NCBI RefSeq assembly: GCF_003918875.1
Contig: NW_025765147.1
Coordinates: forward strand, 186,001 to 248,687
Length of the DNA: 62,687 nt
Direction: 5' to 3'
DNA from: Haliotis rubra
Lineage: Eukaryota
The position numbers were made by a program. Below are positions 42,001 to 45,000 of this stretch, piece by piece (the stretch's first letter is position 1; each line of letters begins with the position of its first letter).

Positions 42001-45000
42001 AATCCAAGGATTACTTGCTCCAAGATACTCCGTTGTGCAAGTTTAAAGTGTTTCTGCGGTGTTAGTCACGAGCTCGACCATCAGTCATGAACGACGAAAT
42101 CCACTTTCGTCTCACCAGTGGATCCTTCCCCCCTGACGTCAGTGGCATCGAGCTTACACCAAGTTAGTCGCACTGCTGTGAGCTCTGGGGATAACAACGT
42201 GCGTCTGATAGGTTGTCTGGCTCTATACCCTGCCGAAGTTAGGTAGTTTTGGACCAATCTGATGGACAAACGACGATGTGGAAGCCACTCTGATTTAACT
42301 ACGCCACTTGACAAAACGGGTAATGTCTTGGGATTCTGAGAATGCCTGTATCCTCCCTATGAGTTGTGACTCGCGGTCGTCGTGAAAGCTGACGGAACAT
42401 AACATCCTTAGTTTGCTGATGTTTTCTGGCCAGTCGGCTGATGACAACTTAACCATCATCTACTGACAAGCCCTGAACGACATGTTAGCATTCAGTATAC
42501 CAGTAACTTGCCATCTGTGAGAAGTTGTCTGTTAAGGAGGCCCTATATGTGTTTATCAACAATGGCATCAATTCATTTTCCAGGTGTAACAACAGTTTAC
42601 TGAAACTTGACATTTACTTAATGACAGGTGATGCGCGTAATGCTCGCCTTAGACTGGAACACGTGCATAACTAAATTAATGTATTGTACGCCCGATGAGT
42701 CAAAATACTCATTCAAACAAACATAATTATGATATGAATATAAATTGACATATGGGAGTTAAAAATCACAGGTGTTGCGGTACTTTTACCATGTGTATAG
42801 TTAAACGCGAACGATACGTTACGCCGTTACGCATACGGGTACTGATTTAGACATTAGTTCCGTTGAAGATACAAACGTGCATATGAAGGTGAAGGTATTT
42901 CGTGTAGTCACGGCATCGTAGGCCTGTGCTATGCTTTATATTATGAATTCTAATGGTATCGAAGAACGAAATGAGTAAAGTGAGCGAAGGAGTTACAACG
43001 TATAGTCACATTGACTTTATTTCAGCACCATCCTGACTAAACAAGTTATGAGTGATATATATTTTAATTATACAAACCTGTCGACAAAGGCCAGTATAAG
43101 TAACTAGAAAATCACAGAAACAGTATTGAAAATCTCTAAATATCTCTACAATTTAAGTTATATTTAGAACAATACAAATTACAAACGTTCTATGCATCGC
43201 CAGAAACTGAAGGTAAATCACCATACTAGGGACCATGGGGAAGTACAGTACTGACAGATTTACACGTTCCCTTAAGCCGTTGACACATAAATTGAAATCA
43301 AAACTATTCTACGTTATGAATGCTGATAGACTTATACGTAGGCTGAAAGAGGACCATAATTTTACAATGCTTCAAACTCTGTGTGGATACAGCCACTAAC
43401 AATATCAGGTATTAATATAAACTACAAACTATAAAGCATATACTTGTTTAAAAAACAGGTTTCAAATTTTATGAAACAATTCAATTTCTTATAACAATCC
43501 AATAATTAAATGAGAATTGACATTATGGAAAAGATCCTTCACTGTTTTTACAATGAAATATATATCCTTTGTGATTGAAAAATATGAACAAAATAATGTA
43601 TCGTCATTGACTAAACACATGTACATAAAACTTCTACCGTATATTTCCATAGATTCAGCATCATCGCACCTTCTGTAGGTTGGCGATTTGGTGGTACATT
43701 TGCTGGAATCAGCAATATATCTCTCCTTGTCAAGATTATTTTGTAGTTTTGGAATCAAGTACAAAAGAGGAATGGGCATGTCTTCAGGTGTAATAGTCAA
43801 GACAAACGCTGATAGCGCTGATGAAAGGTTTAGGCAAATACATATATTTCTAGTACCGTATATTTCCACCTCGCAGAAACTCAGATTCAGCATGCTAGCT
43901 GTAGGTTGGCGATATATCCGGAGATGGATCCCCGTCAGGGGTACATCACACTCCAGGGTGTACTCTGCTTCCCACATGTAGGAAGAGTTCGCGATGTGAC
44001 ATATTCTTCCATCTACAGACACATTTACGTCATCCTGTTGATCTGGAATATGTTGAGAAGAATGAACCAAATACCTTACACTAAATACAGATTCGGGTGT
44101 TTTTAGCATTGCTGTAACATAATAGCTGGTCAATTAATGTTTAAGATGTCTCATATAAAGTACTTGTCTGATATAAAGACCTTGTCAGTATTAGTACTAT
44201 TAATTTTGTCCGTATTAGTACGCAGCGGCGTAAAACTTTCGTTATTTTGTGTTTCTGATGACACAGTACCTTCCCAGAATATCTTGATCCTGGTAACTGT
44301 CCTGCTCTGTGTAAACTCCGCCTCCCATGCTGGGTATAAGGACGAGACTGATGCACACGGTCCTGACGTCACACCATCAGTAACCCAGGATGCCTGTCCA
44401 GTGATGGTGTAAGACTTGTTGTCCCCAGATGTAAAGTTACTCGCTGCTATATTATCTGTAATAATAAACAGTATCATTATCCGTGGTATGATAAGTTCAT
44501 CACATTCCAATATGGTGATTCAGGTTGGAATAACTGTACGTACTGCATGTAGAATCCAGAAAATGTTCTTTTACTTCGGCTTGTCATCACGAGTTGTTTA
44601 AAACGTTCCAGTATCTTGCATCAGCTTTCAGCATTAGTCTATTGTTATATCTTCATCTCAATCAGATTGGACACTATTGTATCGTTTTCTGCACTACATT
44701 CTTTATATTGTGTTGCTACTACTTACACTTAATTTAATTTAAAGTAAAAACCTAATGTGCTAACATAAACACTAAACTAATGGCAATGCGATTTAAATGT
44801 ACATGATGTCTTATTGTGCATCATTGACAAACATATTCCGTTCGCAGTTATGGGCAACATATTAAATAAATAGGTAACTGAAAAGCAGGTGTAAATTGTA
44901 ATCCTGACCTGCCTTACCTGTAACAGCCATAATCAAAACATCGATATCAACGTTACCTGCGGTACAGTTCTGGGTGCAGCTGGGGTCTTGGCCGGGCACT

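What the first reader, a model, noticed from the sequence alone, without database searches (positions are those of the whole stretch)
43630..43700. Relic of a second lectin exon suggests ectodomain swapping in the PTP gene
Downstream of PTP exon 4 and its Penelope-like fragment (both shared with paralog F) sits an orphan exon-4 3' end, PTYRRCDDAES..EIY|gtagaag. It has the RRC insertion and donor flank of paralog B (54200-54270), not of C or F. The junction is at ~43686 with GAT microhomology. Inference: the phosphatase gene acquired an F-type ectodomain by recombination, leaving part of a B-type exon behind.
Basis: partly seen in the sequence, partly recalled or inferred. Interest (0 to 1): 0.68.

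Follow-up and report, generated by a model that had tools for sequence, protein, structure and literature searches.

The report
Dead exon stub marking a recombination scar
A 50-base leftover of a lectin-like exon sits just after the working copy of that exon in a phosphatase receptor gene; it is a real scar of an old cut-and-paste repair between neighbouring gene copies, an ordinary kind of event.

Summary
On the minus strand, 43687->43638 is an orphan copy of the last 50 nt of the lectin-like exon 4. It keeps its splice donor and about 48 nt of intron that match paralog B. It is joined through a 3-nt microhomology (GAT, 43685-43687) to the interior of a retroelement-like fragment. That fragment follows the working exon 4 (44042->43857) and is shared with paralog F, where it reads on past the join.

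- The "RRC insertion" is a 6-nt indel read out of frame.
- The stub shares two indels with B. By substitutions it is nearer F (42 of 44) and C (40 of 44) than B (43 of 50).
- Without an outgroup, four copies show only the split (C,F | B,stub), not a B origin.
- Extra C-F affinity is confined to about 0.5 kb next to the join. Elsewhere C, F and B are nearly equidistant.

My preferred reading: a break in the gene's own exon 4 was repaired by copying from an F-like copy, and the repair was closed by end joining. Replacement of the whole ectodomain stays a live rival. "Penelope-like" found no tool support. No reads, outgroups or RNA data were available.

The parts
43638..43687 (-). Orphan stub: the last 50 nt of a lectin-like exon 4. 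It has no acceptor and no 5' part, and a 13-nt internal deletion.
   Evidence: alignment to C, F, B; anchor words 4 hits each, chance 0.05 and 0.46.
43589..43637 (-). Retained 5' splice site (GT 43637-43636, GTAGAAG as in B) and the first ~48 nt of the original intron 4.
   Evidence: 43589-43687 vs 54167-54272, E 3.9e-13; flank B vs stub: 43 matches, 10 mismatches, 2 gap events.
43685..43687 (.). Junction microhomology: GAT on plus, ATC on minus.
   Evidence: C and F are alike up to ...CCAAATC and differ from the next base on; the exon copies read ...ATATC/ACATC GCC/GAC AACC.
43688..43832 (-). Retroelement-like fragment with an open frame in phase with exon 4. It is shared with F (645-789), and in F it reads on past the junction.
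   Evidence: (43685-43841 vs 642-798, 87.3% over 157; no other copy in the window). Class not confirmed.
43833..43856 (-). First ~24 nt of intron 4 behind the working exon 4, still alignable to B and to the stub's flank. Donor is GTACTAGAA.
43857..44042 (-). Working exon 4 (186 nt, phase 1 to 1): the second half of the lectin-like domain.
   Evidence: Three copies in the window by tblastn. Pfam and PDB found nothing for this exon alone.
44270..44455 (-). Exon 3 (186 nt, phase 1 to 1): the first half of the lectin-like domain.
   Evidence: The ORF holding it hits F5_F8_type_C_2 weakly (E 0.088, 13.9 bits against a cut-off of 27.8). PDB discoidin domains of a glucanase/chitosanase, E 0.38.
814..999 (-). 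Paralog F exon 4.
440..789 (-). Paralog F: the same retroelement-like fragment, continuing ~200 nt or more beyond the point where C is cut. The low end is approximate; a short repeat follows at 216-397.
54167..54272 (-). Paralog B: exon 4 3' end (54272->54210) plus intron flank, the best match of the stub with its flank.
42979..43581 (.). Younger repeat insertion that ends the stub-B flank homology. Family copies lie at 23067-23778, 24211-24888 and 40229-40932.
41363..41554 (-). Ser/Thr-rich stalk exon of the phosphatase gene (192 nt, phase 1 to 1). Either donor could splice to it in frame.
   Evidence: 64-67% identical to the stalk exons of the array.
39190..39366 (-). ORF holding the predicted membrane-spanning exon of the phosphatase gene.
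   Evidence: hydrophobic run followed by basic residues; 35% identical to the array's membrane exon.
34086..37022 (-). Tyrosine phosphatase catalytic exons (ORFs 36849-37022, 35011-35229, 34086-34301).
   Evidence: PF00102, E 7.6e-05, 2.8e-11, 1.4e-12. Single copy in the window.

Best explanation
The stub is the original 3' end of the phosphatase gene's own lectin-like exon 4, left behind by an ectopic repair event in a tandem family of lectin-like receptor genes.

Proposed sequence of events:
1. A break occurred inside exon 4, near the position now at 43687.
2. The upstream end invaded an F-like paralog.
3. DNA synthesis copied the rest of that paralog's exon 4 and 24 nt of its intron.
4. Synthesis then ran about 145 nt into a retroelement-like insert that only the C/F lineage carries.
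5. The new end then had no homology with the other side of the break, so it was closed by end joining on a 3-nt microhomology (ATC).

The result is a 226-nt duplication-like insertion (43913->43688). In order it contains a complete, F-like working exon 4 with its own donor, the truncated insert, the dead stub, and then the old intron.

The stub has no function as an exon. It has no acceptor and has lost 13 nt, including the conserved Cys codon.

Shown: the anatomy of the join, its two parents, and the microhomology.
Inferred: the repair route, and that the F-like tract is short (about 0.6 kb, 43688 to roughly 44300) rather than the whole ectodomain.
For: - Join anatomy: C matches F up to 43685/642 and then matches exon 4 copies, with ATC shared by both sides.
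- In F the inserted fragment's frame stays open for 38 more codons past the join. Nothing like F 398-642 exists elsewhere in the window. So C is truncated, not F expanded.
- The stub is not a copy of any exon 4 in the window. It has its own 13-nt deletion and a 6-nt flank insertion.
- The stub lacks both C/F-specific indels and all B-specific substitutions in the overlap, as expected for the resident gene's older sequence.
- Extra C-F affinity is local. Patterns are 39:20:6 in 43833-44269 against 238:201:199 in 44270-51233 (Fisher p 4.8e-4). By 100-nt bins, C-specific changes number 7 in 43833-44332 against 21 for F and 43 for B.
- C-F mismatch is about 12-13% in the insert against 16.5-24% in intron 2 and beyond.
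- All exons concerned are phase 1 to 1, so the gene stays in frame.
Against: - The near/far regions were chosen after looking at the data.
- The unbiased maximum chi-square scan put a breakpoint at 44305 but was reached by 43 of 500 permutations.
- B's lectin exons are decayed (frameshifts). C and F may be constrained. Either would inflate CF|B patterns near the exons without any mosaic.
- Far from the join, CF|B is still nominally the largest class (238 vs 201 and 199, p 0.10). A plain ((C,F),B) tree with a short inner branch is therefore not excluded, and that fits replacement of the whole 5' half.
- C-F divergence in exon 4 (19 of 186) is no lower than in exon 3 (19 of 186).
- No reads, no outgroup, no second haplotype and no RNA data were available.
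- The sequence behind F's insert lies outside the window.
Confidence: 0.45

Rival explanations
1. Whole 5' half replaced. A deletion or non-homologous exchange inside the tandem array joined the insert in intron 4 of an upstream F-like gene to the middle of exon 4 of the next gene, which carried the stalk, membrane and phosphatase exons. All lectin exons now in front of the phosphatase would then come from the upstream gene. Only the stub would remain of the old ectodomain.
For: - It needs the same junction anatomy and a single event.
- The array layout fits. Lectin exons are followed about 2-2.7 kb later by a stalk exon both in B (54210 -> 51499) and in the phosphatase gene (43857 -> 41554).
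- Far from the join, CF|B is nominally the largest class (238:201:199).
- The phosphatase gene's stalk exon is only 64-67% identical to array stalk exons, which are 85% alike. Its lectin exons are 88-90% identical to array members. So the two halves have different histories.
Against: - C is no closer to F than to B over most of the unit. Examples: 50:52:53 in 48500-49400 and 30:27:26 in 45101-45700.
- In 46365-48633 C aligns to B (70-85%) and not to F, and F has an inverted block there.
- The stub itself is array-like (86-95% to B, C and F). The mismatch between the gene's two halves therefore predates this event.
Confidence: 0.28
2. Strict B-type origin through one tandem duplication. The duplicated segment ran from the middle of B's exon 4 to the inside of F's insert. 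The stub is then the duplicate of B's exon end, and C is the duplicate of F.
For: - It would explain three things at once: the stub shares B's two indels and flank, C shares the insert and indels with F, and F's insert reads on past the join.
- Stub-B mismatch (7 of 50 in the exon part, 10 of 53 in the flank) is in the range of neutral C-F mismatch (12-24%).
Against: - The two supposed copies do not match in content. B's exon 4 to C's insert spans 10.6 kb with no phosphatase exons. The stub to F's insert spans 43 kb and holds the only phosphatase exons in the window. A second large event is therefore needed.
- Beyond the first ~48 nt, no homology was found between B's intron 4 and the sequence behind the stub (E up to 0.1).
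- The stub carries none of B's substitutions.
Confidence: 0.12
3. Assembly artefact: a chimeric join of reads from two paralogous loci at 43686.
For: This is a tandem family with 75-90% identical units and many repeats, which is hard to assemble. No reads could be checked.
Against: - The two sides of the join share only 3 nt. Assemblers join on long overlaps, not on 3 nt.
- The stub differs from every exon 4 in the window by private changes.
- No N or gap is nearby.
Confidence: 0.05
4. The stub is the downstream copy of a target-site duplication made when the retroelement inserted.
For: A repeat of target sequence on both sides of an insert is what a target-site duplication looks like.
Against: - The repeat would have to be at least 74 nt (50 nt of exon plus 24 nt of intron). 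Passages of PMC3846280 give 9-10 bp, or no duplication, for Penelope elements.
- The insert meets the stub at an internal point of its reading frame, not at its 3' end, as F shows.
Confidence: 0.03

Closest known systems
Double-strand-break repair begun by homologous invasion and finished by end joining (one-sided gene conversion with a junction scar). Named from my own knowledge; no paper was read for it.
   Same: The donor sequence is copied beyond the end of homology. The junction has a few bases of microhomology. The recipient sequence distal to the break is kept, giving a partial duplication.
   Different: This is inferred from a single old scar, not observed. Tract length and donor identity are uncertain. 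The donor carried a retroelement-like insert that ended the homology.
Fusion genes made by unequal exchange in tandem gene arrays (Lepore-type haemoglobin is the textbook case, recalled).
   Same: The 5' part of one array member may have been coupled to the 3' part of another.
   Different: Lepore-type events are homologous and leave no scar. This join is non-homologous (3 nt) and left a stub. Whether a whole 5' half was exchanged is not shown.
Exon shuffling of phase 1-1 modules in extracellular proteins (recalled principle).
   Same: Exon 3, exon 4 and the stalk exons are all phase 1 to 1, so lectin and stalk modules can be recombined within intron 4 without breaking the frame.
   Different: This join fell inside an exon, not in the intron. 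That is why a stub is visible at all.
Penelope-mediated copying of intron-containing host genes (Arkhipova et al. 2013, PMC3846280; abstract and passages read).
   Same: A retroelement-like sequence lies at the edge of a duplicated, intron-containing host segment. That paper also reports microhomology-mediated junctions.
   Different: There are no terminal repeats, no target-site duplication and no hammerhead motif here. The fragment is an internal piece of a reading frame. Its Penelope identity is unconfirmed.
Receptor-type protein tyrosine phosphatases.
   Same: Extracellular module, Ser/Thr-rich stalk, membrane segment and a PF00102 catalytic domain all lie on one strand in compatible phases.
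   Different: The ectodomain is a single small discoidin-like module shared with neighbouring non-phosphatase genes. Only one catalytic domain was detected.

Membership tests
Receptor-type protein tyrosine phosphatase | Catalytic domain of family PF00102 | tested here: met
   three exon ORFs hit PF00102 (E 7.6e-05, 2.8e-11, 1.4e-12), covering profile positions 14-44, 127-177 and 168-222 of 234.
Receptor-type protein tyrosine phosphatase | One transcript joining ectodomain, membrane segment and catalytic domain | not testable with these tools
   Only strand, order and phase compatibility are shown. No RNA data. Exons 1-2 and the signal peptide were not located. The joined protein was not built or searched.
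Discoidin / F5_F8 type C-like (galactose-binding-like) lectin domain | Significant match to the domain profile | tested here: inconclusive
   Exon 3 ORF: PF22633, E 0.088, 13.9 bits against a cut-off of 27.8. PDB discoidin domains, E 0.38. Exon 4 alone: nothing. Each exon holds only half a domain.
Penelope-like retroelement | Reverse transcriptase domain recognisable by profile | tested here: not met
   Pfam gave no hit for the 93-aa F fragment up to E 10, nor for the longer ORFs. PDB gave only one unrelated hit, E 0.8. The fragment is short, and to my recollection its motifs look like the start of such an enzyme. That is a lead only.
Penelope-like retroelement | Terminal repeats with hammerhead ribozyme; GIY-YIG nuclease | tested here: not met
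   Rfam at gathering thresholds gave 0 matches in the window. The part of the element that would hold a nuclease lies outside the window in F and is deleted in C.
End-joining junction scar | Both parent sequences identifiable, abrupt switch, and a few shared bases at the switch | tested here: met
   F gives the left parent and exon 4 copies give the right parent. The switch lies within the 3 nt ATC. Three bases alone would often occur by chance.
Target-site duplication of a retroelement | Short direct repeat flanking the complete ends of the element | tested here: not met
   The repeat would be at least 74 nt and abuts an internal point of the fragment. Penelope duplications are given as 9-10 bp or none in PMC3846280.
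Processed (retro-copied) pseudogene | Loss of introns | tested here: not met
   The stub keeps its donor and about 48 nt of intron.

The most novel reading that the evidence does not exclude
The locus may be a modular receptor array. One small lectin-like ectodomain, built of phase-1 exons, would be repeatedly re-coupled to alternative signalling halves. In neighbouring genes that half is a tail rich in Tyr-x-Asn motifs; in one gene it is a tyrosine phosphatase. This would resemble paired receptors with opposite signalling. The stub would be the one exchange that missed the intron and so left a visible scar.

In addition, the stub's donor stays usable. The frame is open from exon 4 through the insert and the stub (73 codons) and ends in the same phase. 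A longer splice form carrying a retroelement-derived linker is therefore possible.
Probability: 0.15. Interest if true: 0.6.

Novelty: new member of a known kind. Interest (0 to 1): 0.3.

Why it matters
The stub dates and locates one rearrangement in a family of lectin-like receptor genes. It shows that the phosphatase gene's last lectin exon is not the one it used to have. This is direct evidence that paralogs in the array exchange sequence. Such exchange is how binding domains in receptor families are diversified or homogenised.

It is a small and expected kind of scar. Its value is as a marker: with related genomes it would give the order of events, and with RNA data it would show whether the second donor is ever used.

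Tried and rejected
I went on with single ORFs.
- Naming the inserted fragment failed with Pfam, PDB and Rfam. No other copy exists in the window.
- I looked for the rest of F's insert, or a second stub, elsewhere in the window and found none.
- I looked for homology between B's intron 4 and the sequence behind the stub beyond the first ~48 nt. None was found at E up to 0.1.
- A match of 38201-38314 to 53560-53672 looked like a phosphatase relic in B's intron. It is a repeat that also occurs inverted at 51608-51661. tblastn found no second copy of any of 8 phosphatase-gene ORFs.
- A second catalytic domain was not detected in 4 ORFs between 30.9 and 33.1 kb.
- Positive selection on the lectin exons is not supported. 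C vs F dN/dS is 0.105/0.138 for exon 4 and 0.091/0.129 for exon 3.
- The open frame through the stub is not rare enough to argue for function. 4.7% of all 73-codon windows in the window are stop-free (5873 of 124938).
- The target-site-duplication idea was rejected on length and position.
- Two paper searches on lectin-phosphatase arrays and Penelope motifs gave nothing specific (listings only). PMC11167929 (outline and abstract) concerns initiation near the element's 3' tail and does not bear on this join.
- Not done: no search of relatives. The open collections hold only prokaryotes, phages, plasmids and E. coli, so I did not use them.
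Full report
**Setting.** The window has no N, and GC is 36-45%. All the genes discussed lie on the minus strand. Self-comparison shows three paralogous units: F 642-7179, C 43685-51584 and B 54192-60412. Each unit ends, at its low coordinate, with two 186-nt exons. In C these are exon 3 at 44455->44270 and exon 4 at 44042->43857, both phase 1 to 1.

Together the two exons encode about 124 residues of a small lectin-like domain. Support for the name is weak. The ORF holding exon 3 hits PF22633 (F5_F8_type_C_2) at E 0.088, below the cut-off. It also hits discoidin domains in the PDB at E 0.38. 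Exon 4 alone hits nothing. The joined protein was not built, searched or folded, so the domain call stays provisional.

tblastn finds exactly three copies of exon 4 in the window, plus a weak hit at the stub.

**The phosphatase gene.** Downstream of C's exon 4 lie, in order:
- a Ser/Thr-rich stalk exon (41554->41363, 192 nt, phase 1 to 1);
- an exon with a hydrophobic membrane-type run (within 39190-39366);
- exons that hit the tyrosine phosphatase family PF00102 (E 7.6e-05, 2.8e-11, 1.4e-12). These are single copy in the window.

Exon 4 ends one base into a codon, and the stalk exon begins with the two bases that complete it. The lectin exons and the phosphatase exons can therefore form one reading frame. 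B's lectin exons are followed at a similar distance by a homologous stalk exon (51499->51209). So the region is a tandem array of genes of the form lectin - stalk - membrane - tail, and one member carries a phosphatase instead of a tail.

**The observation.** 43687->43638 is a 50-nt copy of the 3' end of exon 4, followed by GT and by an intron flank that aligns to B down to 43589.
- The match to B has E 3.9e-13 within the window.
- Two anchor words occur only at F, stub, C and B. Each has 4 hits against 0.05 and 0.46 expected, and 0 of 100 shuffles reached 4.
- Upstream of the stub, C and F are alike from exon 4 through 24 nt of intron and about 145 nt of an inserted fragment. They part exactly at 43685/642.
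- The three bases ATC (GAT on the plus strand, 43685-43687) belong both to the F-like sequence and to the exon.

'PTYRRCDDAES' is the stub read one base out of its own frame. In the exon's frame it reads RQPTEGAMMLNL. A 13-nt deletion then removes the conserved FCEV codons.

B yields 'RRC' only because it has a 1-nt insertion in a G run upstream. B also has +3 and +6 nt in exon 4, and -17 and +1 nt in exon 3. Its lectin exons therefore look pseudogenised, unless these are sequencing errors.

At the DNA level the 'RRC insertion' is a 6-nt indel: B and the stub have it, C and F do not. The donor also differs: GTAGAAG in B and the stub, GTACTAGAA in C and F.

**Is the stub B-type?** Only by those two indels.
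- By substitutions the stub matches F at 42 of 44 sites, C at 40 of 44 and B at 43 of 50. For comparison, C-F is 53 of 57, and C-B and F-B are each 51 of 57.
- Every site in the overlap where B differs from C and F has the C/F base in the stub. Both anchor words are identical in stub, C and F and one mismatch off in B.
- The intron flank cannot decide. C and F have lost theirs after +24 to the insert, so only B is left to compare (43 matches, 10 mismatches, 2 gap events).
- That level of difference equals the general B-C difference in non-coding sequence (77% identity).

With four copies and no outgroup, the data show only the split (C,F | B,stub). That split is predicted equally if the stub is B's sister or if B and the stub merely kept old states that the C/F ancestor lost.

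**Is C's ectodomain F-type?** I made a three-way alignment of the units and counted sites where two copies agree against the third.
- Next to the join (43833-44269: flank, exon 4, intron 3) the counts CF|B : CB|F : FB|C are 39:20:6.
- Over the rest (44270-51233) they are 238:201:199, close to a three-way tie (p 0.10).
- The difference is nominally strong (Fisher p 4.8e-4), but I chose the regions after seeing the data.
- An unbiased maximum chi-square scan placed a breakpoint at 44305 and was matched by 43 of 500 permutations.
- In 46365-48633 C aligns to B at 70-85% and F does not align. F has an inverted block at 4041-4369.

What is demonstrably shared by C and F is therefore the insert, two indels and about 0.5 kb next to the join, not the whole ectodomain. 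One caveat applies: B's decay and constraint on C and F would also raise CF|B near the exons.

**The inserted fragment.** It is in the gene's orientation and in frame with exon 4. In F the frame stays open for 38 codons past the join. A further stretch in another frame looks like a continuation. F 398-642 has no counterpart elsewhere in the window. So C carries a truncated version of what F has.

To my recollection its motifs resemble the beginning of a Penelope-type reverse transcriptase. I treat the class as unknown.

**Mechanism.** Any model needs a non-homologous join between the inside of the insert and the inside of an exon 4.

A target-site duplication is excluded. The repeat would be at least 74 nt, and it abuts an internal point of the fragment. 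Passages of PMC3846280 give 9-10 bp, or no duplication, for Penelope elements.

A misassembly is unlikely, because the two sides share only 3 nt and the stub has private changes.

I prefer a local repair model. A break in the resident exon 4 was repaired from an F-like copy. Synthesis ran past the end of homology into the insert, and the end was closed by end joining. This model explains:
- the kept distal sequence (the stub);
- the microhomology at the join;
- the local C-F affinity;
- the stub's 'neither B nor C/F' character.

The main rival is a deletion or exchange that put a whole upstream lectin half in front of the phosphatase half. A single tandem duplication from B's exon 4 to F's insert would elegantly make the stub B-type. 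But it requires a second large event, because only one of the two supposed copies holds phosphatase exons.

**A wider hint of exchange.** The phosphatase gene's stalk exon is 64-67% identical to the array's stalk exons, which are 85% identical to each other. In contrast, both its present exon 4 and the stub are 86-95% identical to array members. The lectin half of this gene has therefore been kept similar to the array, or exchanged with it, more recently than the stalk half. That was already so before the event that made the stub.

**What stayed unchecked.**
- No relatives from other genomes could be searched.
- No reads and no RNA data were available.

**Verdict.** This is a real, well-placed observation of an ordinary kind of scar. 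The evolutionary story built on it is partly right in kind (exchange with an F-like copy). It is unproven in its two specifics: a B-type origin and a whole-ectodomain swap.

Noticed in passing
window 54210-54830 (minus): Paralog B's lectin exons carry frame-breaking indels relative to C and F: -17 and +1 nt in exon 3, and +3, +1 and +6 nt in exon 4. They look pseudogenised, unless these are homopolymer errors.
   Followed up: partly
window 43638-43857 (minus): The frame stays open from exon 4 through the insert and the stub (73 codons). It ends at the stub's donor in the same phase as the normal donor, so an in-frame longer splice form is possible. Stop-free 73-codon windows make up 4.7% of the window, so this may be chance.
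   Followed up: partly
window 44043-44269 (intron 3) vs exons 3 and 4: Between C and F the intron differs less (11 of 209 aligned) than either flanking exon (19 of 186 each). dN/dS of the exons is about 0.7-0.76.
   Followed up: partly
window 48934-49248 and 5299-5658 (minus): ORFs in units C and F (67% identical) share a run of Tyr-x-Asn motifs (YVNT, YVNN, YVNV, YEN). They lie next to a membrane-type segment (49260-49364), which suggests a signalling tail. Each unit also has a second membrane-type exon (50244-50402) that resembles the phosphatase gene's. Gene models are unresolved.
   Followed up: partly
window 4041-4369 vs 46967-47315 and 56786-57120: A ~330-nt block conserved in C and B is inverted in F.
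   Followed up: no
window 7179-7637: Unit F's homology with C stops inside the stalk exon, where a repeat begins (7190-7637). No lectin exons lie upstream of it, so this array member is broken.
   Followed up: partly
window 41454-41647 vs 51430-51561 and 60224-60408: The phosphatase gene's stalk exon and ~90 nt before it are 64-67% identical to array stalk exons, which are 85% alike. The two halves of the gene differ in age.
   Followed up: partly
window 10201-23184, 27344-28731, 41696-42356: The window is rich in mobile elements:
- two diverged copies of an endonuclease / reverse transcriptase / RNase H element (15282-18198 vs 19542-22482, 76%);
- a DUF3504 / integrase-like ORF pair (11835-13118);
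- a 47-nt satellite of 29.7 copies;
- a Tc3-type transposase remnant (42084-42356);
- a palindromic short element (41696-41808, also at 5573-5687).
   Followed up: partly
window 30903-33070 (minus): Four ORFs downstream of the catalytic exons gave no phosphatase hit, so a second catalytic domain was not detected.
   Followed up: partly
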